Below, one piece after another: positions 1 to 58,616 of a DNA stretch of 64,000 bases; position 1 is the first letter of the stretch, and every line of letters begins with the position of its first letter. The stretch spans positions 22,446,001-22,510,000 of the forward strand of contig NC_086097.1 in the NCBI RefSeq assembly GCF_963921235.1. The letters are read 5' to 3'. The notes beneath the pieces were generated by a model. It worked only from the letters and a program-made list of their open reading frames with translations, did not search any database and was not told where the DNA came from. The DNA comes from Mobula hypostoma (Eukaryota). A program made the position numbers and the translations under genes.

Positions 1-2640
1 TCTTTGTCGGTTTCTTTGTTGGCTATCGCTGGGACTGTAAAGACCCAGAATATGCTGTCGATTTTTATTTTAGGTATAGTGTTCAACGACATATAGTGTT
101 CAAAATCAATTCTGATGGAGGACTCGATCAGTTTTTGTTTGCACACTCGAAAGTTACAGTTGTTGCTGCAAGGTTGGTACTTGCAGCTCACCGCAACTGT
201 AATATGCTCTTCATCCCTTATTGTTACTTTTCAATTGCTTGCAAACTTGGGTACTGTAGGGTAAATATGCATTTATGGCTCATTCTCAATCACACACTCG
301 AATGGTACTTTTTCAATGACCGGCGACTTCTAAAACGCTGTTAAATTAGAACGTACTTGAAATATGTTCAGTATAAGCACGTGTGTGCGAACATTGCGGT
401 AAGTCGCCCCGATATGAATACTGTACATAAAACTCCAGGTGAAATGCACAGCGTTGGAGAGTTCTGTTTCCATGAATAGTCTTCTTGCCCTCTTCTGCAA
501 TTTTTTAAAATTATATTTCAACACCACAATTATGCGGAGTCTATGGAAACATAAAAAAAAGATAAGCACCAGCCTCAGGCGAGACACTTTGCGCATTCTC
601 TCGGCGCAAGGAGCTGTTAACATCTTTAAATGGTCTCCTGCTCCTCTGGGATCTCACCCATTCCGAGGTCCACGCATGCTACGTCTGCTGTGACCACCAA
701 CCCCGGTGCGACCGAATTTATTCAATACATCCTTGAACAATGGCAATGCAAGCTGGAGCTAATTTGTAAGCTTTAAAAGAATATTTAGTAAATGTATTTA
801 TAGGAACGATATTGCAGCGCCCTGAGAACGGGGAAACAATGGGAACAGTTATTTGCCCTTGCAAATGTTGTGAGTTTATTACCTGAGTGCATTCTACTTT
901 TCTGACCCAAGGTTGCTGAAAGGTGGATTTTTAGAATATGGTAAGCAGAAATAGGCATTCCGACTAGACGACAAACTACGAGAATATACGGCTTGTAGTC
1001 TTCAATTGCGAATCTGTGTATTGGCCATGTTCAGTCAAGTGCTCTCGTACCATCTGGAGAGGTTTAAATTCTCCGTATTTATCTTTTTCGTCGTTTTAAA
1101 TCAGATTGTTTTGCAAATGCCGATTATTAATCGGGGAGGGGAGGAACACGTGGACCGGTTTACCATTGAAATAAATCCAGATTTTAGCGAATATTTGACC
1201 AGTCTTGGCCGGCATGTTACTTCAGCATCGCATTATATGAAAATATTGCGCCTATCTTTTCACTGAGGGGGACATTTCACAATTCGCCCGGTGTTTTATT
1301 TAATGCAACACAACTAACAGAACCCGTTTCCAGAAGATTCGTCAAATCGTTGAAGCATAACTTTTTTTAAAGTGACATAAGTATAAAAGGGGGTTATGCG
1401 CTCAGATACTGGTGAGCTAAATATAAAATATGGTTATTTAACATAAAACATTTTCAGCAAATGTTCGTTTCCACCAGCGAAATATGGACAGTTGTTGATC
1501 TAATTTGATACGCATTTCTCGAATTGCACAAACATTACCAAATGAAGGCGATTGCATTTCAAGAAAAAGAGATGGAGAAAAGCCATCGCCGATTTCCCTC
1601 TAACTACGGGGGGGGAAGGGGAATATCAGGTCAGTCAGTGAGCAATCCCACGTCTTTTCAGACACCTTTTCGCTATTTGAGTGGGTCGAGAAATGTATTT
1701 CTCTGTGAAATACAATAAACGCATACAGTGATTAAGAGAAGTTGGGGGTAGAGGGATGGGTTGGGGTGGCGGGGGTGAAGAAGTTCATTTTTGATCTTAC
1801 CGGAGTGCACTTGCACATTCGTCCTTTGCAAATTGTTAGTCAATAATATTATCGGTGTGCTAATGTGAGGTGCGCATATCTAGTCTGAACACTCGCTATC
1901 GCTGTGTCAGTTCGGAGTTCGAGCGTCAGGCCGAAGAACATAACAACTGGGGTTTAATGTCCCGAGTATAGGAGCTTTAAAGGTGTTTTTTTTTCGTTTA
2001 AGAATACAACACGATATGTTAATGGAAATCTATGCAAATATTTGCATCCCTGCATTAATGATATTATATTAGCGCTTTGAAAGAATATTTTCCAACCTTC
2101 AATGTCACTGTAAAGTGGAGAGGAGGGAAACCCGATACATTTCTCCATTTAATGCAGATGTAGAAAAGGCTTGAAGAGGATTATCGTCTTTTTAATTGCA
2201 TTGCTTTATTTTTGGATCTTTTTCCTAAATATAAATAAGGTGGGTGGGACAAGTTGGGAGGTAGTGGGCGAGCTCCAGAAATTGGGGCCGGGCGCCTTGT
2301 TTATGATCTTTCTGCGAGCGCGCGGCAGAAGCGAGAGCCTTGGTTGAGACGGTGGGGGGGGGGGTGTACGCATGCGCGCGGCGCCCGCGGGAGGCGCGTG
2401 GCGGATGAAAGGAAGGGGCCGCGCGGCACGCGCTCCGGGTTAGGCGGCTCGTGGGCGGCGCGAGGGACCGCTGGAGGCCCTGGGGTCTCGACGCCCACGG
2501 TCTGCGAGTCATACGTGACAGGCGCGGCTCTGCCTCGGCGTTAATTTTAAAGATCGGAACACAGCAAAACCCGAAGTAAAATTATTTCAAAAAATAGATG
2601 TGATCTATGGAAACTCCATCGCCTCATAAATTGCTTCGAG
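1..2640. promoter_or_regulatory. CpG-retaining region with a GC-rich core (~2265-2545); probable promoter/CpG island
   Basis: CpG is frequent here and scarce in non-repeat DNA elsewhere; no recognisable transposons. NRF1-like TACGCATGCGCG at 2367-2378; + strand donor-like GCG|GTAAGT at 399-404. Confidence 0.65.
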
Positions 2641-12995: not shown

Positions 12996-14501
12996 CCCAT
13001 GTAGTTCAAGAGGGCAAGTTCAACAGACAGAACAGGCAGGAGCATTGACCACTTCCTCTGGCGTCTCATTACCACAACCCACTGTGTAATGAAGTTACCT
13101 CTCAGATCTTTTTTTAACTTTCTCCCGTGTTATCTTGTATCCATGCCCTCTAGTTTTGACCATAAGACCATAGGACATAGGAGTGGCTTCAGGCTGTTTG
13201 GCCCATCAAGTGTCCTCAGCCATTCCATCATGACTGATTTATTATCCCTCTCAACCCCATTCCCCTGCCTTCTCCCCGTAACCTTTGCCACCCATGCTCA
13301 GCAAGAATATATCAATCTGTGCTTTAAATATACCCAATGACATTGCTTCTACAGCCGTCTTTAGCAATGAATTCCATGGATTCACCACCTCTGGCTAAAG
13401 AAATTCCTCCTAATCTCTGTTCTAAAGGGATGTCCTATTTTGAGACTGTACCTGCTGGTCCTAGATTTCCCCATGACCAGAATTTTTCTCTCCACATCCA
13501 TTCTATTTAGACTTTTCAGTATTTGATAGGTTTCAATGAGATCCCACCTCATTCTTCTAAACCGCAGTGAGTACCGGCCCAGAGCCATCAAATACTTCTC
13601 ATACATTTGATTCGTGGAATTGTTCCCATGAACCTCCTCTGGACACTCTCCAATGCCAGCACATCCTTCCTTTGATAAGGGCCCCAAAACTGCTCATAAT
13701 ACTCCGTGTGGTCCGACCAATTCCTTATAAAGCCTCAGCATTACATTTTTGCTTTTATATTCTAGTCTTCTCGAAATGAGTGCTAACATTGCATTTGCTT
13801 TCCTTACCACCAACTCAATCTGCAAGTTTGCAGGAACATTGCGGGAATCCTGCACTAAGACTTCCTAGTCCTTTTGCACCTCTGATTTCTGAGCTTTCTC
13901 CCCTGTTTAGAAAATATTTTACATCTTTATTGCTTCTACCAAAGTGCATGACCATAAACTTCCCTGCATCATAATCTACCTGCCACTTCTTTGCCCATTC
14001 TGCTAATCTGTCCAGATCCTTTTGCAGACTCCCTGCTTCCTCAACACTACCTGCCCCTCCATCTACCTTCATATTGTCCACTAACTTGGCCATAAAGCCA
14101 TCAATTCTGTCATCCAAATTATTGACATGTTTCATGAAAAGAAGCGATCCCAACACACTGGTCACCAGCAGCCAAATGTTCCCCTTTGTTCCCACTTCTT
14201 GCTTCCTGTCGGTCAGCCAATCTTCCTACCCATGCTAGGATCTTTTCTTTATTGCCATAGGCTCTAATTTTGTTCAGCAACCTCATATGTGGTACCTTGT
14301 CAAAGGCTTTCTGAAAATCCAGGTAAACAACATCCACTGACTCTCCTTTGTCTATCCTGTCTGTTATTTCTTCAAAAAAGCCCAACAGATTTGTCAGGCA
14401 AAATTTCTCCTCAAGGAAACCATGCTGACTTTGGCCTATTTTGTTATATGCCTCAAAATACCCTGAACTCTCATCTTTAATGGACTCCAACATCTTTGTA
14501 A

Positions 14502-15207
14502 ACAACAGGAATTCTGCAGATGCTGGAAATTCAAGCAACACACATAAAAGTTCCTGGTGAACGCAGCAGGCCAGGCAGCATCTCTAGGAAGAGGTGCAGT
14601 CGTCGTTTCAGGCCGAGACCCTTCGTCAGGACTAACTGAAGGAAGAGTGAGTAAGGGATTTGAAAGTTGGAGGGGGAGGGGGAGATCCAAAATGATAGGA
14701 GAAGACAGGAGGGGGAGGGATGGAGCCAAGAGCTGGACAGGTGATAGGCAAAAGGGATACGAAAGGATCATGGGACAGGAGGTCTGGGAAGAAAGACAAG
14801 GGGGGGGGACCCAGAGGATGGGTCCTCCCCCTCGTACCCCATCTGTTACTTATTTTTATACATACATTCTTTCTCTCACTCTCCTTTTTCTCCCTCTGTC
14901 CCTCTGAATATACCCCTTGCCCATCCTCTGGGTTCCCCCCCCCTTGTCTTTCTTCCTGGACCTCCTGTCCCATGATCCTCTCGTATCCCTTTTGCCTATC
15001 ACCTGTCCAGCTCTTGGCTCCATCCCTCCCCCTCCTGTCTTCTCCTATCATTTTGGATCTCCCCCTCCCCCTCCAACTTTCAAATCCCTTACTCACTCTT
15101 CCTTCAGTTAGTCCTGACGAAGGGTCTCGGCCTGAAACGTCGACTGCACCTCTTCCTAGAGATGCTGCCTGGCCTGTTGCGTTCACCAGCAACTTTTATG
15201 TGTGTTG
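14502..15207. mobile_element. Fold-back Penelope-like insertion (two inverted pseudo-LTR copies) with 17-bp TSD
   Basis: Arms 14535-14822 and 14920-15208 are near-identical reverse complements; TSD CTCCAACATCTTTGTAA at 14485-14501 and 15208-15224. Confidence 0.92.
15110..15145 (+). ncRNA. Minimal type-I hammerhead ribozyme motif (PLE-associated)
   Basis: AGTC-CTGACGA-A-GGGTCTCGGCCT-GAAA-CG-TC^GACT: core boxes, stem I AGTC/GACT, stem II, loopless palindromic ACGT stem III. Predicted cleavage after 15141. Confidence 0.7.
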
Positions 15208-15879
15208 CTCCAACATCTTTGTAATCACTTGTCAGACTAACTGGCTTATAATTTCTTTTCTTCTGCCTCCCTCACTTGCAATTTTCCAGTCCTCCAGAAC
15301 CATTCAAGAATCTAGTGATTCTTGAAAGATCACTGCTAATGCCTTCACAATCTCTTCAGCTAACTCTTTCAGAACCCTTGGGTGTAATCCATCTGGTCTA
15401 CCTTCAGACTTCTCAGCTTCCTAAGCATCTTCTCTTTAGTAATAGCAACTACACTCACTTCTTCCCTCAACACACTTGAATTTATGGAATACTGCTTGTG
15501 GTTTCCAAGTGATGACTGGTGCAGAATACTTAGTAAGTTCCTCCAGCATTTCTTTGTCCCCATTGTTTGCCTTAGTTTTACTCTAGATGTATCTGAAAAA
15601 GCTTTCGATATCCTATTTTATATTATTGGCCTGCTTACACTCATATTTATCATTTCTTCCCTTATTGCCTTTTTAATTTCCTCCTGTTGGTTTTTAAAAG
15701 CTTCCCAATTTTCTAGGTTCCCACAAATTTTTGCTATATTGTATACCCTCTCTTTTGCTTTTATGCTGTCTTTGACTTCCCTTATCAGCCATGGCTGCTT
15801 TATCTTCCTTTTACAATACTACTTTTGCACTTTCAAACCCTGGGGAAGACTAACCATGCATCGTATCCAAAACACCTCA

Positions 15880-24900: not shown

Positions 24901-25446
24901 CCAGACCATACTTCTCAAATTACAATTGAAGTCTTCTATTCCATTAGTATACAGAAGAAATTTTACATAGTATTGGATAGCAGAGCACCAAATTTAAAGG
25001 TTTTATGAAATGTACGGCCAAAGAGAATTAGAAATTATTCCTGTCCTGGAGGTGTGTAAAAGATTAACTAGAAAGGTTCCAAGGCTGAGGAATTTCAGTT
25101 TTAGGATTAGACTTGAGAGGCAGGAGATTTTGTCAGAAGATTTTAGAACATAGAACAGTACAGCCCTTCGGCCAACAATGTTGTGCTTAACCAATTAAAT
25201 TAGTGATCAAATGGCTAACTAAACTAATCTCTTCTGCCTACAATGTCCATATCCTTCCATTTTCTTCACATTGATATGCCTATCTAAATGTCTCTTATAT
25301 GTCCTCAATGTTTCTACCTCTACTACCAGCCCAGGCAGTGCATTCCAGGCATTCACATCTCCTTTGAAATTATCCCTTCTCACCTTAAATCAATGCTCTC
25401 TGGTATTAGACATTTCAACCCTGGGAAAAAGATACTGTCTGTCTAC

Positions 25447-25550
25447 ACGAGGAAATCTGCAGATGCTAGAATTTAAAGCAACACACCTAAAAATTGCAGG
25501 TGAACACAGCAGGCCAGGCAGCATCTATAGGAAGAGGCCCGAAACGTCGG
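25447..25550. mobile_element. Miniature Penelope-like insertion with inverted junction and TSD
   Basis: TSD CTGTCTGTCTAC at 25435-25446 and 25551-25562. Begins acgaggaaatctgcagatgct (minus 3' end) and ends with a plus-sense hammerhead piece ggcccgaaacgtc. Confidence 0.75.
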
Positions 25551-25629
25551 CTGTCTGTCTACTCTATCCATACCTCTTGTAAACCTCTATCAGATCTCCC
25601 TTCAGCTTCTGCCACTCCAGAGAAAACAA

Positions 25630-26600: not shown

Positions 26601-26704
26601 CATTTTATAGAAACACACAAGGCTATGGATGGTTTAGGTAGAGTAAATGGAGAAAAGTTGTTTCCATTAGCAACTGGTTCAAAGACAAGGGAATATGGAC
26701 CTTA

Positions 26705-26883
26705 ACACGAGGAAATCTGCAGATGCTGGAAATTCAAGCAACACACACAAAATGCTGGTGGAACGCAGCAGGCCAGGCAGCGCCTATAGGAAGAGGTACA
26801 GTTGACGTTTCAGGCTGAGACCCTTCGTCAGGACTAACTCTTCCTATAGATGCTGCCTGGCCTGCTGCGTTCCACCAGCATTT
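26705..26883. mobile_element. Fold-back Penelope-like mini-insertion with 15-bp TSD
   Basis: TSD GGAATATGGACCTTA at 26690-26704 and 26884-26898; arms 26750-26795 and 26838-26883; minus-strand hammerhead motif at 26800-26835. Confidence 0.9.
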
Positions 26884-36134: not shown

Positions 36135-37017
36135 TTATTTTAATGGATTCTATTGGGAATCTTTGTTTTGGTGAAACCTTGAGGTTGTATAAAGTGAACT
36201 TTGATAATAAATGTACTTTGAACACCTGAACAACCTGTCACTGATGTACAATCACTCCTCATCTTGATCTTTTTCTGAAGGCCAAACTCAGCCACAGGTA
36301 AAGGGAAAAACCATGGATGAGAGACAGAAAGGGCTACACTGGGACCGTATTCCACATTAGGCATCCCAAGGTTTTGTGCCCATTCATTTCCCAGCCACCC
36401 AAAACTAAAGACCTTATGGATATGTTGCTTCCAACACTCTACTAATGTTGCCAATATTGGATGGCCAACTTTATGGTACATTAACGTAATAAGCCATTGC
36501 TAACTGTAATCTCTGTAGATATAAAGGTACTTCACACATTTCTACCAGTAATGCTGAAAATGGGGATGACTCAATAGCACCACACCATAATCTCAATGCT
36601 TGAGTTTGAACTTTATCTTGGGTCTTTAAGACTGCTGGTGAGACTGACCCATAAGCAACACGTCCATAATCAAAGACAGATCTGATTAAAGCAATTATAC
36701 ATTTGTTAAAGTGGCCTCCTGCTCACATCCCAATCAGACACAACTAAGGTCCTGGGTACATTTAGGGCTTTTTCACCAGAATTTTCTTCGCATCACCTTC
36801 CATGCTAGCCTTGTCTCCATCCACAGACCTAGAAACTTTACTGCTGACTCTTGTTTTAGAGTTTTAACGTATAACTTGAGATCAAATATGGGTGTAATGT
36901 TTCTTTTAGATAAACAAGTAACTTGAGTCTTTAAACAGAAAATTTAAACCGACATCCCCATTTTTCTACTTCATTAATAACTGCCTGCATTTTCCTAACT
37001 ACATAATTTATCTTTCC

Positions 37018-37233
37018 AAACACGAGGAAATCTGCAGATGCTGGAAATTCAAGCAACGCACATCAAAGTTGCTGGTGAACCCAGCAGGCCAGGCAGCATC
37101 TCTAGGAGGTACAGTCGACGTTTCGGGCCAAGACCCTAGTCCTGACGAAGGGTCTCGGCCCGAAACGTCGACTGTACCTCTTCCTAGAGATGCTGCCTGG
37201 CCTGCTGCGTTCACCAACAACTTTGATGTGTGT
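37018..37233. mobile_element. Fold-back Penelope-like mini-insertion with hammerhead at its apex
   Basis: TSD TAATTTATCTT(T)CC at 37004-37017 and 37234-37246; arms ~37055-37137 and ~37149-37234. Confidence 0.9.
37138..37173 (+). ncRNA. Minimal type-I hammerhead ribozyme motif (best-preserved copy)
   Basis: AGTC-CTGACGA-A-GGGT-CTCG-GCCC-GAAA-CG-TC^GACT; predicted cleavage after C37169. Confidence 0.75.
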
Positions 37234-37476
37234 TAATTTATCTTCCTGCCTGTCTTCCACACGGTACCATCAACAGCACATAACAATTTGTAAATGTCTG
37301 AACTGAATCTCTTGACCATGTCTGCATGCTTTTATGCATTGAGTTGCAACCACATGATTGGCAGATTAGATATCTGCATTAACGGGCAGCTGTACAGATG
37401 GACCTAATAAAGTGGCCACTGACTATCACTATATACTATTGTGAGATTCATTTTCATACAGGCATTCTCAGTAGAA

Positions 37477-44284: not shown

Positions 44285-44505
44285 TTGCCGAGCACCTTCG
44301 CTCTGACTGCAACAGGCAGGATTTCCTGGTGGCCACCCATTTCAATTCTACTTCTCTTAAAATTCCAACATTTTGGTCTGTGGCCTCCTCTACTGCCACA
44401 ACGAATACACTCTTAGGTTGGAGGAGCAACGCCTCATATTCTGTCCTGAGGAAGGGTCTTGGCCCGAAACGTCGACTGTTTATTCACCTCCATAGAAGCC
44501 TGACT
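44285..44505 (+). mobile_element. Penelope-like fragment (GIY-YIG C-terminus joined to a hammerhead); host PLE resumes at ~46552-46989
   Basis: VATHFNSTS, then LRLEEQRLIFC in a shifted frame; hammerhead CTGAGGA...GAAACGTC at 44446-44473. After the CR1, tgggtagcctccagcatgacaacatgaacattgatttc continues the PLE. Confidence 0.8.
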
Positions 44506-44511
44506 TTATAC

Positions 44512-46545
44512 CCGTGGCTGACAAGAGAAATTAGGGATAGTATCAATTCCAAAGAAGTAGCATACAAATTAGCCAGAGAAAGTGGCTCACCTGAGGACTG
44601 GGAGAAATTCAGAGTTCAGCAGAGGAGGACAAAGGGCTTAATTAGGAAGGGGAAAAAAGATTATGAGAGAAAACTGGCAGAGAACATAAAAACGGACTGT
44701 AAAAGCTTTTATAGATATGTAAAAAGGAAAAGACTGATAAAGACAAATGTAGGTCCCCTGCAAACAGAAACAGGTGAATTGATTATGGGGAGCAAGGACA
44801 TGGCAGACCAATTGAATAATTACTTTGGTTCTGTCTTCACTAAGGAGGACATAAATAATCTTCCAGAAATAGTAAGGGACAGAGGGTCCAGTGAGATGGA
44901 GGAACTGAGCGAAATACATGTTAGTAGGGAAGTGGTGTTAGGTAAATTGAAGGGATTGAAGGCAGATAAATCCCCAGGGCCAGATGGTCTGCATCCCAGA
45001 GTGCTTAAGGAAGTGGCCCAAGAAATAGTGGATGCATTAGTGATAATTTTTCAAAACTCGTTAGATTCTGGACTAGTTCCTGAGGATTGGAGGGTGGCTA
45101 ATGTAACCCCACTTTTTAAAAAAGGAGGGAGAGAGAAACCGGGGAATTATAGGCCGGTTAGCCTAACGTCGGTGGTGGGGAAACTGCTGGAGTCAGTTAT
45201 CAAGGATGTGATAACAGCACATTTGGAAAGCGGTGAAATGATCAGACAAAGTCAGCATGGATTTGTGAAAGGAAAATCATGTCTGACGAATCTCATAGAA
45301 TTTTTTGAGGATGTAACTAGTAGAGTGGATAGGGGAGAACCAGTGGATGTGGTATATTTGGATTTTCAAAAGGCTTTTGACAAGGTCCCACATAGGAGAT
45401 TAGTGTGCAAACTTAAAGCACACGGTATTGGGGGTAAGGTATTGGTGTGGGTGGAGAATTGGTTAGCAGACAGGAAGCAAAGAGTGGGAATAAACGGGAC
45501 CTTTTCAGAATGGCAGGCGGTGACTAGTGGGGTACCGCAAGGCTCAGTGCTGGGACCCCAGTTGTTTACAATATATATTAATGACTTGGATGAGGGAATT
45601 AAATGCAGCATCTCCAAGTTTGCGGATGACACGAAGCTGGGTGGCAGTGTTAGCAGTGAGGAGGATGCTAAGAGGATGCAGGGTGACTTGGATAGGTTGG
45701 GTGAGTGGGCAAACTCATGGCAGATGCAATTTAATGTGGATAAATGTGAAGTTATCCACTTTGGTGGCAAAAATAGGAAAACAGATTATTATCTGAATGG
45801 TGGCCGATTAGGAAAAGGGGAGGTGCAACGAGACCTGGGTGTCATTATACACCAGTCATTGAAAGTGGGCATGCAGGTACAGCAGGCGGTGAAAAAGGCG
45901 AACGGTATGCTGGCATTTATAGCGAGAGGATTCGAGTACAGGAGCAGGGAGGTACTACTGCAGTTGTACAAGGCCTTGGTGAGACCACACCTGGAGTATT
46001 GTGTGCAGTTTTGGTCCCCTAATCTGAGGAAAGACATCTTTGCCATAGAGGGAGTACAAAGAAGGTTCACCAGATTGATTCCTGGGATGGCAGGTCTTTC
46101 ATATGAAGAAAGACTGGATGAACTGGGCTTGTACTCGTTGGAATTTAGAAGATTGAGGGGGGATCTGATTGAAACGTATAAGATCCTAAAGGGATTGGAC
46201 AGGCTAGATGCAGGAAGATTGTTCCCGATGTTGGGGAGGTCTAGAACGAGGGGTCACAGTTTGAGGATAGAGGGGAAGCCTTTTAGGACCGAGGTTAGGA
46301 AAAACTTCTTCACACAGAGAGTGGTGAATCTGTGGAATTCTCTGCCACAGCAAACTGTTGAGGCCAGTTCATTAGCTATGTTTAAAAGGAAGTTAGATAT
46401 GGCCCTTGTGGCTACAGGGGTCAGGGGGTATGGAGGGAAGGCTGGGTTCTGAGTTGGATGATCAGCCATGATCATAATAAATGGCGGTGCAGGCTCGAAG
46501 GGCCGAATGGCCTACTCCTGCACCTATTTTCTATGTTTCTATGTT
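44512..46545 (+). mobile_element. Young 5'-truncated CR1-clade LINE: 646 uninterrupted ORF2 codons (RT; endonuclease missing) plus 3' UTR
   Basis: [62 protein letters not shown]; stop ends at 46452. 3' UTR hairpin GGTGCAGG...CCTGCACC and tail TTCTATGTTTCTATGTT. Confidence 0.95.
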
Positions 46546-51945: not shown

Positions 51946-52508
51946 CAGGATTGAATGTCAAAATAAAGATTAAATAATGTTAATTAAAAATACAGAATTA
52001 CCTGTATGAAAATATAAACATTGATGTAAAATAATTACTATATAAACTATTTCTCCATTGCCTTCTATTCCTCAGGTGTGAAATCCCCTTTGAAATCTCA
52101 AGAGTTAAAATCCCAAGTCATGTTTCACCTGGCATAGAATCCGAGTGGCATTATCCTCGATAAAGCTGCCACATTCCAGCAAGACTGGGCTGCACATGGA
52201 TTCCAGCAATGGAATGTGTTGACAAATGCTGCACCATCTGTCACACAGTAAGCCTTGGACTTGTGCATTGGACTGGAGAGTGACAGCAGTTACAGTTGTA
52301 ATTTTCAAATGGGAATTAAATGTATGTATTAAAACATGGATTTTGTAGGTCTGTGAGGAAAGAATGGCAGAATTGGTAGCAGTGGTAAGCTCAAGTTCAA
52401 TTATCATTCAACTATATTCATGAAAGCAGTCAAAGAAAACAGTGTTGTTCTGGGGCCAAGGTGCAAAACACAGTACCAACAGTCACACACAGCACAAGGC
52501 ACATCTAA

Positions 52509-54636: not shown

Positions 54637-55180
54637 GTTTTGAGGCAAGATTCAAGGTTTGTGGCTTCTTTGAGGCAGTGGCAACTGCAAATGTATCCCA
54701 GCATCATGTGGTGTGTCTGGATTCTGGCTGCGACACACAAAAACTGATGTAAGGATTAATCTGTGAACTCTTGACAAAAATAAAAATCACAGGCAAAATA
54801 GTGCCTCTTCACTGTAGATGGCAGAATTAGCCTTGACAGCTTGAGGTTTGATTGAAATCCCAGTTTACTTGTTTATTGCCAGCCACCTACTGAAGACTTC
54901 AGCACATTCACAATTTCTCAGCTCTAATCAGAAGCTTCCTATGAATGAATTGATGTGGGTTGACTACAGTTAAAAGCTCGGGAAACCGTAACCATCCTGT
55001 GTTCTGCCTTTGTTTGATTTGACCTAACCAACGCTGTTGACGTAGGCTAAAATAACCTCTCAAATGAGCATTTCTATTAATGTGGATTTAATCCTCTCCA
55101 ACAAACTGCATCTTTTGTGAGCAGTCCTACAGTTTGCTTTCTCCCTGCGTTCCACTGATTTTGTGCATCTTGTGATAAAC
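54637..55180 (+). other. nrxn3: Probable 5' UTR portion of the nrxn3 first coding exon
   Basis: Acceptor ttaattttctttacag|G at 54636/54637; no recognisable repeat between it and the ATG. Mammalian NRXN3-alpha also has a long 5' UTR in its first coding exon (recalled). Confidence 0.65.
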
Positions 55181-55865
55181 ATGGATTCCTTCTGCTTTGC
55201 GCTGTTACTAAGTTCTTTAGCGGGGCTTTGCCTGGGCATTGAATTTACTGGAGCACCAGGACTGTGGACCCGCTATGCGCATTGGGATGCAAGCACCAGG
55301 AGCGATCTAAGTTTCCAGTTCAAAACCGAGCTCTCCAGCGCTCTGATGCTTTACTTTGACGACGGAGGATACTGCGATTTTGTGCAGCTGATGATAGTGG
55401 AGGGGAAAATTCAGCTGAAATTGAGCATTGACTGCTTTGAGACTGAGATCAATATGGATAAGCCGGTGAGTGATGACAAATGGCACTTTCTCATGATATC
55501 CCGCAATAACCTGAGAACAGTTCTCGTGTTGGACGGAGAAACGAAGTCGGCCGAAGTCAAGCCACAGCGGCAGTACATGAAGATTGTAAGTGATCTGTTC
55601 ATAGGAGGCGTCCCACAGGATATTCGGAAGTCAGCATTAACTTTGAATGGGGTGCAAAGCAAGCCTCCTTTTAAGGGATTTATCGAAGACTTGAAATATG
55701 GGGACTCTGCACCGGTGCTGTTGGGGAGTCAATTCGTGAAGCTGGTCAGGGAAGGCATTTGCACCGAAAGCCCATGTGAAAATGGTGGAATTTGCTCTTT
55801 GATCGAAGGGGAAGTCACCTGTGACTGTTCTAGCACAGGATATATGGGGAGGTACTGCACTGAAG
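55181..55865 (+). CDS. nrxn3: First coding exon of alpha-neurexin-3: signal peptide, laminin-G/LNS domain 1, EGF-like domain 1 (partial CDS; gene continues downstream)
   Basis: Translation [24 protein letters not shown]...[15 protein letters not shown]...[10 protein letters not shown]...[20 protein letters not shown]...PCENGGIC...[15 protein letters not shown] matches the neurexin-3 alpha N-terminus as I recall it ([15 protein letters not shown] distinguishes it from NRXN1/2). ATG at 55181 has strong Kozak context (AACATGG). Donor GAAG|GTGAG after 55865 is phase 1. The ORF-track start 55163 is a GTG, and its tail ERKALNCIH is intron read-through. Confidence 0.95.
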
Positions 55866-58616
55866 GTGAGAGAAAGGCTTTAAATTGTATACATTAAAAT
55901 GTCAGACCCTTGTAATAAAATGACCTTTTTTGGATTAAATTGCATTTTTTGTTGAAGTTAACTGTTACTTATATATTGGGGTTCAGCAAGTGGTTGGTTG
56001 ATTTTGATCCCCAATTAGCTCATTCCAGATCCCTTCTGGACTCGATTGAGTTATCATATCACAGTTGAGAAAGCACTTAGATAGTTTTAAACCTGGGTTT
56101 ATACAAACTTTGTAATTGGTTAAGGGAAAAAAAAGCAATTAGCTTTGATTTCTAACTTGAATTGCTTAATATTAATCTACTCTATAAATGTCTTTGTTAT
56201 TTTAGTTAGAAGCCCTATTGATATCTTGAACCATGTTCACAGGTCAAAGGTTAAAGATGAAGAATGATCCCTTGGGGTGGGGTAGCATGGTGAACACTGA
56301 ACTTGGTAAAGGTTATTAAATAAATTTGGATTTCACCCTTGATTAAACTACCTGAAACTCTCAATTATTTTCAAATCTATCTATCAATATTAAGTAGTAC
56401 CGATGTTATAAAAGAAATAGCAGAGATGTATATTATTTTTTCTCTGTAAATGTCGTTTCTTAAGGAATTAATTTAAAATCTCTGTTTATTCTATGTTTCG
56501 TTGAGTATTTTAAACTATTATGTTTATGTGAATAACAGGCTGAAAATACAAAGCAGTTTAAGAAGCTATTTTTGCAAATATGTGTCAGTGCAGAAATGGA
56601 ATATTGCATATTTTTCAATTGACTGAAAACCTATGTAAATTATTGGAGAAGTTTAATGCATTTTGCCTGTGAATGTTACTTTTATTTGATTTTAACCTAA
56701 CTCAGCTGCATCATTTTACAATATAGCACTCATCTGACAAGATCGGACATGAGCACTACTTCATCGACTACCGTTAAGATGTCTATGTGTGTATTTTTGT
56801 GTGTATACATTTGGTATTGTAGCCCTAAGGCTTGTCATGGCGTTTCCTGATTTATGCATCTAAAAGTAGTGTTGCTACCAACATTTCTGTTGTTGGCATG
56901 CATCTTTAGAAGTAAACTTATAGATCTTTAAAAATTTATATCAGTTTGTATTTTCCTGAGTATATTCAGATTTCTTATCTTTTTATATTCCATATCTATT
57001 TTAGAACAAAAATATGAGTTGATGATATTTGCACAAAACAATTCTACTAGATTTAGTTATGTACAAAGTTGGATTTCAACTGTACAGTTAATCCTTGGTT
57101 TTGGTTCAAGAGTAGACTGTTAACCTGTTAAACCATGGAACGGTAGGCCAGATGTGCCTTACCGTGTGGTGGGTTATTGGTCGTCTTGGGGATGTCTTGC
57201 AGGACTTAAAATCTTTCTGCAAGGAAACAGAAGTTTAGTCATAAATTTGTCTTGCAAAATTGTTCCTGGCCCACAAATGGTCGCAGAGCAACATGGTGGA
57301 ATCTCATATAGAGTCAAAGCTCTAGTCATTCTGCATTCAGTAATAAGCAATAATTCCACAAGAGTTTGTTATAGCTGAAGAATTTAGAATTAATTACATT
57401 ACTGTTTGTGAAAAATCTTGAAAGCAGTGGTGAGTTTATATTTGCCTGACAAACAAGGAACTTGTGATCTATTTAAGTAAGTTGCTTATTTGTGGTCTTA
57501 TTTCTATGTTTCTTTTGCACAGTAAATAACTGTACAATCACTAAACGTGCAAACAAAGTGGTTAGTGAGGAAGTTTTTTTAATAACAAGAGCAATACGTA
57601 TCTCAAAAAGAAAGTTCATCATTGATCAAAGTAGAATTGGTAAAGAATTGGGAACAGGAGGTTTGTGGATGAATTTTGTGTGGTTTCCCAGGAGCTCTCA
57701 TTGCAGATGTTTCAAAATACTTGGTATTTTCTGAATGAACTTGGGTCTTATTTTGATTAATGAAACCATTTTATAAAGCTCTTCTTTCCTGTGCTTTTTA
57801 TTTCTTCCAAGTATAGATATTTATTATAAGCCTCCGAATATGCAGCTTGCTTTCACTATGGCTAAAAATCCATCCTTCAACATGAGGTGTTTAAAAGGGG
57901 ATCATAAAATGCTTATTTTTTTTATGTAGAGACTCAGCTGGATATTTGGGTGAAGATCTATTTTCAGAAATGCCTCCAATCTATTCCTGATGTAGAATAA
58001 CACTAATGCCCTCAGATAATTTAGAATCCATGAATTGTTATAGATTTATGGTCAATCAATATTTGGAAGTTAAATAATTAAAACCCAAAGGACCACAGGT
58101 AAATTATTAGTGTTCCAATTGCTTTTGCTTCTAAATTGATCTTGGGAACAATTCATTTACTTTTATTTTGCATTTTCAATACCTTCTTTAGCGTTTAATA
58201 TTCAACACAGTCACTGTATCATGAATAAGTGCAATTTCGGGGGTAGAAGTTCACTCTTGGTTGTATGCCCTCAACACGCAATGCCATTAAATGAAATTAA
58301 ATTTCCGAAGCATCAGAAATTTGGATCTTTTTAACTGAAATTTCAGAGACTTTGTGCAGGTGCAGCTGTATTCTGTGCTTATTGCATGCAACTAAGTAGA
58401 AATCATTAGTAATTTCAGAGAATTTAATTAGGCATCTTCATTTATCAAAATGCCTAATTAAGTTATCCTAGTACTGCAGCAAAATCTCGAACAGAATTTG
58501 CCATGACTGAGTGGTTATATTTTTTAAAACCACATTAAACAGACTATTTCACTATACCATCAAATTTCTTAACTCATTTTTAAGGGGGATAATATAATAT
58601 ATTAATATATTTGCAA

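What the first reader, a model, noticed from the sequence alone, without database searches (positions are those of the whole stretch)
37138..37173. Abundant Penelope-like repeat family carries a minimal, probably dimer-dependent hammerhead ribozyme
Seen: AGTC-CTGACGA-A-GGGT(CTCG)GCCC-GAAA-CG-TC-GACT has both hammerhead core boxes, stem I (AGTC/GACT), stem II and a GUC cleavage triplet. Stem III is only the loopless palindrome ACGT, and there is one extra A after A9. Core-intact copies also lie at 15110-15145 (+), 44443-44477 (+) and 26800-26835 (-), with more than 15 decayed relatives in the window. Several sit downstream of GIY-YIG remnants. Known: Penelope-like elements carry minimal type-I hammerheads in their pseudo-LTRs, thought to cleave as dimers. 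Inference: this is a very high-copy ribozyme-bearing repeat, and sense copies may lie inside the nrxn3 pre-mRNA.
Basis: partly seen in the sequence, partly recalled or inferred. Interest (0 to 1): 0.72.

Follow-up and report, generated by a model that had tools for sequence, protein, structure and literature searches.

The report
Masked hammerhead in Penelope retrotransposon stub
This is the tiny hammerhead-ribozyme motif already known from Penelope-like jumping genes, here in about 96,000 places in what is likely a shark or ray genome; the flagged copy lies in the first intron of a neurexin gene but sits inside a long mirror-image insertion predicted to mask it, so it is likely inactive and ordinary.

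Summary
The motif is real: 4,891 exact genome copies, and 96,264 core-pattern matches against 14 for the reversed control. It fits the published minimal hammerhead of Penelope-like elements (PMC4209133) point by point, including the extra nucleotide after A9 and the loopless palindromic stem III. It lies in the pseudo-LTR of a Neptune/Nematis-type element; a near-complete pLTR-ORF-pLTR copy was found. The flagged copy is one 217-bp head-to-head insertion (37018-37234) with a target-site duplication. Its long hairpin is predicted to abolish both hammerhead stems. RNA contigs place it, sense, in intron 1 of the neurexin gene, but no unmasked partner for dimer cleavage lies nearby. The core is conserved between subfamily consensuses but decays like its flanks after insertion. 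Family data point to uncleaved templates: 5' ends pile up at the ribozyme's front edge (2.35 per 100 nt) and not at the cut site (0.45). All 45 inverted pairs carry one long and one short end. An older subfamily spread with an A6C core. Cleavage was not tested. The scan found this same family and pattern before, in this genome and others. Known kind, low interest.

The parts
37138..37173 (+). Minimal type-I hammerhead motif; predicted cut after C37169
   Evidence: Sequence; consensus features in PMC4209133
37137..37234 (+). Right arm: 5'-truncated pLTR end from -1 to +96 (0 = 37138), ending at the short RT-start site
37018..37137 (-). Left arm: inverted pLTR end from +11 to +133, with the ~35-nt tail; lacks CUGANGA; pairs with and masks the right arm
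37004..37014 (+). Target-site duplication, left copy (11 nt exact; 13-14 nt with one indel)
37234..37244 (+). Target-site duplication, right copy
14497..15209 (.). Second head-to-head insertion of the young subfamily; hammerheads at 14598-14633(-), with U16.1 mutated, and 15110-15145(+), core intact but masked; 17-nt shared flank
26704..26880 (.). Third head-to-head insertion; hammerhead 26800-26835(-), antisense to the neurexin gene, with a stem I mismatch; 15-nt shared flank
44287..44502 (+). Older copy: GIY-YIG C-terminal remnant joined directly to a core-intact hammerhead (44443-44477) by an internal deletion; 3-bp stem I
54637..55865 (+). First coding exon of an alpha-neurexin-type gene (LamG + EGF). 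Its upstream exon ends 1,361 bases left of the window, so all window copies left of 54637 lie in intron 1

Best explanation
The motif is the minimal hammerhead carried in the pseudo-LTR of a very abundant Penelope-like retrotransposon with a Neptune/Nematis-type linker, and the flagged copy is a head-to-head insertion stub whose mirror arm is predicted to mask the ribozyme, so it is likely a passive intronic relic. Shown: the motif, its link to the element's RT and GIY-YIG ORF, the copy numbers, the target-site duplication, the one-long-one-short ends and the intronic position. Inferred mechanism: the element's endonuclease nicks both target strands about 11-15 nt apart. Each nick primes reverse transcription at one of two internal RNA sites (about +97 and +133), as shown in vitro for the Anolis element (PMC11167929). 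Both cDNAs stop early, mostly near the ribozyme's front edge, and are joined head to head. The templates were mostly not cut at C17. In the source element the ribozyme is kept by selection and likely cuts only slowly, as a dimer or with help from the element's protein, as a side step that insertion does not need.
For: The motif matches all four emergent min-HHR features of PMC4209133 except covariation. GIY-YIG C-termini lie about 300-350 nt upstream of the motif in many family loci. L149 is pLTR-ORF-pLTR and L135 has a 1,075-aa open frame with RT motifs and the GIY-CxxC-YIG region. The CX4CxxC linker is in 15 of 20 long copies, which marks Neptune/Nematis (PMC8557442). All 45 of 45 head-to-head pairs have one long and one short 3' end (p=3e-14 against 50%). 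The TSD flanks the whole pair. 5' ends: 31 of 133 at risk fall in -5..+5 (2.35 per 100 nt) against 8 of 164 at +27..+37 (0.45). 22 of 30 ORF-bearing copies keep sequence across the cut site and none starts at +32. Young and old consensuses differ at 2 of 36 ribozyme positions, both neutral, against 22 of 76 flank positions (p=0.006). Post-insertion decay of core against flank is 1.9% vs 0.9% (young) and 11.2% vs 9.4% (old). The hairpin folds at -168 kcal/mol, z=-21; stem I and II probability is 0.00 in context.
Against: No cleavage assay and no raw RNA reads with molecule ends were available. Folding energies ignore core tertiary contacts and co-transcriptional folding. The subfamily comparison rests on two consensuses, and flank +50..+69 is as conserved as the ribozyme (1 of 20). 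No two-sided compensatory changes stand out within the genome, only G-C/G-U and U-G/U-A. The samples were anchored on exact matches, mostly on one end of contig C1. Missing 5' ends at +32 could also arise if cut RNA is religated or destroyed. Neptune versus Nematis was not resolved by a tree.
Confidence: 0.85

Rival explanations
1. Sense copies cut the neurexin pre-mRNA in intron 1, alone or as dimers between copies, and tune its expression.
For: RNA contigs of two runs (X2, X4) join an upstream exon to 54637, which puts 15110, 37138 and 44443 sense within intron 1. Their cores are intact.
Against: 15110 and 37138 are masked. 44443 has a 3-bp stem I with about 0.01 pairing probability, and its nearest core-intact sense neighbour is 7 kb away and masked. 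The active dimer (-14.7 kcal/mol) is less stable than two rods (-23.8). Published min-HHR monomers did not cleave and dimers did so weakly (PMC4209133). At about 28 motifs per Mb, a few in a 56-kb intron are expected.
Confidence: 0.05
2. Ribozyme cleavage defines the ends of the transposing RNA, which may circularise and be copied as more than one unit (the model of PMC4209133).
For: The core is conserved between subfamily consensuses. Partial tandems exist: 11 of 30 ORF-bearing copies carry at least 386 nt of upstream pLTR. Religated circles would leave no 5'-end peak at the cut site.
Against: There is no 5'-end peak at +32. An older subfamily spread with A6C: 1,781 matches against 548 for the A6G control, and 24 of 30 sampled have old-type flanks; A6C strongly lowers Mg2+ cleavage (PMC7151607 passages). 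Ribozyme mutants did not affect insertion in vitro (PMC11167929).
Confidence: 0.15
3. The short hairpins are a self-copying MITE-like or retrozyme element rather than by-products made at each insertion.
For: Short fold-backs are common: 45 pairs among 186 young arms.
Against: The turning points differ from copy to copy and arm lengths run from tens of bases to over 1.4 kb. There are no tandem arrays: only 6 of 71 core-intact arms have a same-strand intact neighbour within 5 kb. Non-LTR retrozymes are defined by tandem units (bioRxiv 10.64898/2026.07.22.740005).
Confidence: 0.07

Closest known systems
Minimal hammerheads (min-HHR) in pLTRs of metazoan Penelope-like elements (Cervera and De la Pena 2014, PMC4209133; read parts 1-2 of 4, and searched supplement file 2)
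   Same: Type I, 4-bp helix I, unpaired nucleotide between 9 and 10.1, G10.1-C11.1, palindromic 15.2-16.2 without loop 3; mostly single dispersed copies, with some opposite-strand pairs 100-700 bp apart.
   Different: Helix II is short (3-4 bp). The count is about ten times that paper's Xenopus (9,000) and coelacanth (4,000) figures, though the descriptors differ. No shark or skate entry was found in supplement file 2; file 1 could not be searched.
EN+ Penelope-like elements, Neptune/Nematis clades (Craig et al. 2021, PMC8557442, passages; Arkhipova et al. 2013, PMC3846280, passages)
   Same: Single RT plus C-terminal GIY-YIG ORF, CxxC inside GIY-YIG, CX2-5CxxC linker, pLTR, adjacent inverted 5'-truncated copy, one-sided 30-40-bp tail, TSD.
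   Different: The one-sided tail is strict here (45 of 45 pairs), and 5' ends cluster at the ribozyme's front edge, which the passages read do not describe.
PAc, Poseidon of Anolis carolinensis (Frangieh et al. 2024, PMC11167929; read parts 1-2 of 4)
   Same: Two internal RT starts bounding the tail; both strands cut and extended; uncut RNA as template; ribozyme dispensable for insertion.
   Different: Different clade (no linker Zn-finger in Penelope/Poseidon). In PAc the ORF starts inside the ribozyme; here the first ATG of the long frame in L149 is about +173.
Non-LTR retrozymes (bioRxiv 10.64898/2026.07.22.740005; read part 1 of 5 and passages)
   Same: Type I hammerhead related to PLE pLTRs; reported in one chondrichthyan.
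   Different: These copies are not tandem arrays; they are 5'-truncated ends of an autonomous element.

Membership tests
Hammerhead ribozyme (min-HHR) | CUGANGA and GAAA boxes, A15.1-U16.1, H17 | tested here: met
Hammerhead ribozyme (min-HHR) | Extra nucleotide 9/10.1, G10.1-C11.1, palindromic 15.2-16.2 without loop | tested here: met
   against PMC4209133; a young branch has G-U at 10.1-11.1
Hammerhead ribozyme (min-HHR) | Core conserved across subfamilies more than flanks | tested here: met
   2 of 36 against 22 of 76, p=0.006, two consensuses only; one older branch has A6C
Hammerhead ribozyme (min-HHR) | Compensatory covariation in stems I and II | tested here: inconclusive
   Only one-sided pair-keeping changes are common; the stems are nearly invariant in this genome
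Hammerhead ribozyme (min-HHR) | Active fold accessible in the flagged copy's RNA context | tested here: not met
   Predicted stem I and II probability 0.00
Hammerhead ribozyme (min-HHR) | Self-cleavage after C17 | not testable with these tools
   Needs an assay; only contigs were available
Rfam hammerhead families | Covariance-model score | tested here: not met
   No hit at gathering score or at E<=10; the models expect a closed stem III (recalled)
EN+ Penelope-like element | RT plus C-terminal GIY-YIG with internal CxxC, flanked by pLTRs | tested here: met
   the Pfam GIY-YIG score was weak (E=0.098)
EN+ Penelope-like element | Inverted 5'-truncated pLTR, one-sided tail, TSD | tested here: met
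Neptune/Nematis clades | CX2-5CxxC linker between RT and EN | tested here: met
   15 of 20 long copies and 94 of 120 homologs
Neptune versus Nematis | RT phylogeny with named references | not tested
   No named reference set was in hand
Penelope/Poseidon clade | Absence of the linker Zn-finger | tested here: not met
   Linker present
Non-LTR retrozyme | Tandem units each with a hammerhead | tested here: not met

The most novel reading that the evidence does not exclude
This family is copied mainly from an uncut RNA that begins at the ribozyme's first bases (a transcription start at about -4 to +1, behind a TATA-like TTCAAA at -31). Both target nicks prime at different internal sites in every inverted insertion, and the hammerhead's catalysis is dispensable for spread, as an A6C subfamily shows. 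Tens of thousands of copies would then be a natural readout of the unresolved Penelope insertion mechanism and of what the ribozyme is for.
Probability: 0.4. Interest if true: 0.45.

Novelty: new member of a known kind. Interest (0 to 1): 0.2.

Why it matters
The pairing of ribozyme and transposon has been known since 2014, and this copy is predicted inactive, so the locus itself matters little. The family has some value as test material. The role of the hammerhead in Penelope-like elements is stated to be unclear (PMC8557442 passages), and this genome holds about 96,000 motif copies whose end positions argue against cleavage defining the inserted RNA.

Tried and rejected
Rfam scans found no hammerhead, only generic hairpin microRNA models far below gathering score. 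My first label, Poseidon, was dropped after the linker motif was found. A splice explanation for the 5'-end pile-up was considered, because a pyrimidine tract and AG precede the motif. It got no support: solo copies share no upstream exon sequence, and the three contig joints that reach the motif are not GT-AG (only the best-supported joints were shown). One genome pattern was one base too long (230 matches) and was rerun. A guessed tail-stem register was wrong and is ignored. No listed run is on record as RNA; the exon-shaped contigs behave like spliced RNA but cannot show molecule ends, strand or level. Paper searches listed no paper on this shark or ray family. Most subscription journals and Repbase are not covered, and supplement file 1 of PMC4209133 could not be searched and may list such elements. 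PMC3088659 was seen as a listing only.

Full report
Observation. The three other named copies keep their catalytic nucleotides, with weaker stems. A profile built from natural copies finds 27 relatives in the window and none in the reversed sequences. In the whole 3.48-Gb genome the exact 36-mer occurs 4,891 times (control 0), a 28-mer from just downstream 67,345 times, and the core pattern 96,264 times against 14 for the reversed control. That pattern does not test stem I or the inner stem II pairs; in my sample 71 of 186 young arms had the core plus a 3-bp stem I. Rfam has no hit.

The element. Positions below count from 37138 = 0. In many of the 30 best genome matches, a GIY-YIG C-terminus ends about 300-350 nt upstream of the motif. 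Walking upstream gave RT motifs, a 1,075-aa open frame in L135 (Pfam RVT_1), and a pLTR-ORF-pLTR copy with an internal deletion, L149. A CX4CxxC linker between RT and endonuclease is in 15 of 20 long copies and 94 of 120 homologs. PMC8557442 (passages) gives this linker to Neptune and Nematis and not to Penelope/Poseidon. The best named homolog is from Chiloscyllium punctatum at 71%, so the host is likely a cartilaginous fish.

The flagged copy. It is not a lone motif. 37018-37137 on the minus strand (+11 to +133) and 37137-37234 on the plus strand (-1 to +96) form a head-to-head pair, flanked by an 11-nt exact duplication at 37004 and 37234. It is therefore one insertion. As RNA it folds at -168 kcal/mol (z=-21), and both hammerhead stems have pairing probability 0.00; the same holds for 15110. 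Alone, the 36-mer prefers a rod that pairs G5-G8 with the cleavage-site strand (0.54 against 0.0008). The active dimer scores -14.7 kcal/mol against -23.8 for two rods. These energies omit tertiary contacts.

Host gene. 55184-55867 encodes a LamG and an EGF domain; the neurexin reading fits my recall of alpha-neurexin first exons, and the paralog was not tested. Contigs of four coded runs (RNA by guess only) start or end at the exon borders, and none covers the flanking intron. The loose 5' end in X2 and X4 maps to an exon ending at G000:C1:22,444,639, 1,361 bases left of the window, followed by GT; X3 uses another exon ending near 52246. At about 28 motifs per Mb this is expected by chance.

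How the family inserts. I scored 186 young arms (at least 85% identical, 3' end at +80 or beyond) from 93 ten-kb loci plus the window; the loci were anchored on exact matches and lie mostly at one end of contig C1. 3' ends fall into two groups, about +97 and +133. All 45 of 45 head-to-head pairs have one of each (p=3e-14); solos split 52 short and 45 long. This matches the two internal RT starts and the two-strand cutting shown for the Anolis element (PMC11167929, parts 1-2) and the one-sided tail of PMC8557442 and PMC3846280 (passages). 5' ends: 31 of 133 at risk fall in -5..+5 (2.35 per 100 nt) against 8 of 164 around the cut site (0.45); for solos, 15 of 79 against 2 of 87. Thirteen loci anchored on the 36-mer favour ends at or before 0, but the earlier sample without them gave 47 of 161 in -10..+9. 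Seven solos begin exactly at +1, five of them directly after the duplication. Among 30 copies that include the ORF start, 22 keep sequence across the cut site and none begins at +32 (one is the query's own locus). The templates were thus mostly uncut. The pile-up most likely marks an RNA 5' end (my odds about 0.55; initiator-like sequences at -4 and 0 and TTCAAA at -31 are read from the sequence, with the consensus recalled). Rivals are arrest or microhomology at the self-complementary motif (0.3) and splicing (0.15, unsupported).

Selection. Young (168 copies) and old (92 copies) consensuses differ at 2 of 36 ribozyme positions, N7 and a G-C to G-U wobble, against 22 of 76 flank positions (p=0.006), though +50..+69 is just as conserved. 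After insertion the core decays no slower than the flank. No two-sided covariation stands out. An older branch carries A6C: 1,781 matches against 548 for A6G, and 24 of 30 sampled have old-type flanks. A6C strongly reduces cleavage in Mg2+ in other hammerheads (PMC7151607 passages). So the motif is usually kept in source elements but is not essential for spread.

Comparison and verdict. PMC4209133 (parts 1-2) describes this architecture, including the extra nucleotide and the palindromic 15.2-16.2, in Xena, Poseidon and Neptune elements of fishes; its monomers did not cleave and its dimers cleaved weakly. My searches listed no paper on this shark or ray family, so it is a new member of a known kind. 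Earlier notes of this scan describe the same family, hairpins and 5'-end pile-up in this genome and in others. I had measured the pile-up first and do not count those notes as support. Cleavage remains untested. Interest 0.2.

Noticed in passing
G000, pattern matches; L181-L210: An older subfamily carries a natural A6C core variant (CUGCYGA), about 1,800 pattern matches; the same change makes a phage hammerhead prefer Mn2+ (PMC7151607).
   Followed up: partly
L151-L180: Among 30 ORF-bearing copies, none has a 5' end between -35 and -385, while 11 extend to -386 or further; a functional upstream pLTR may need a minimum length. The sample is small and picked by score.
   Followed up: no
window 15090-15111 and family copies: A branch-point-like sequence, a pyrimidine tract and AG precede the motif in young and old subfamilies; sense copies might act as cryptic splice acceptors in host genes. 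No such splice was seen.
   Followed up: partly
window 52075-52246 (+): Alternative 5' non-coding exon of the neurexin gene, joined to 54637 in one contig of run X3 (flagged as probably DNA by the tool, and from another organism).
   Followed up: partly
window 44500-46452 (+): Long open RT frame (Pfam RVT_1, E=4e-34) of a CR1-like LINE (family recalled) directly behind the 44443 hammerhead copy, sense in intron 1.
   Followed up: no
L135 ORF, L149: The N-terminal part of the element's ORF holds a duplicated ~60-aa proline/serine-rich block before the RT.
   Followed up: no
window 25445-25554: Short insertion with a 12-nt shared flank in which a +38..+131 arm meets a 19-nt inverted piece of the hammerhead's 3' half.
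   Followed up: partly
window 1-2600: CpG-rich stretch next to the mapped first exon of the neurexin gene, likely its CpG island.
   Followed up: no
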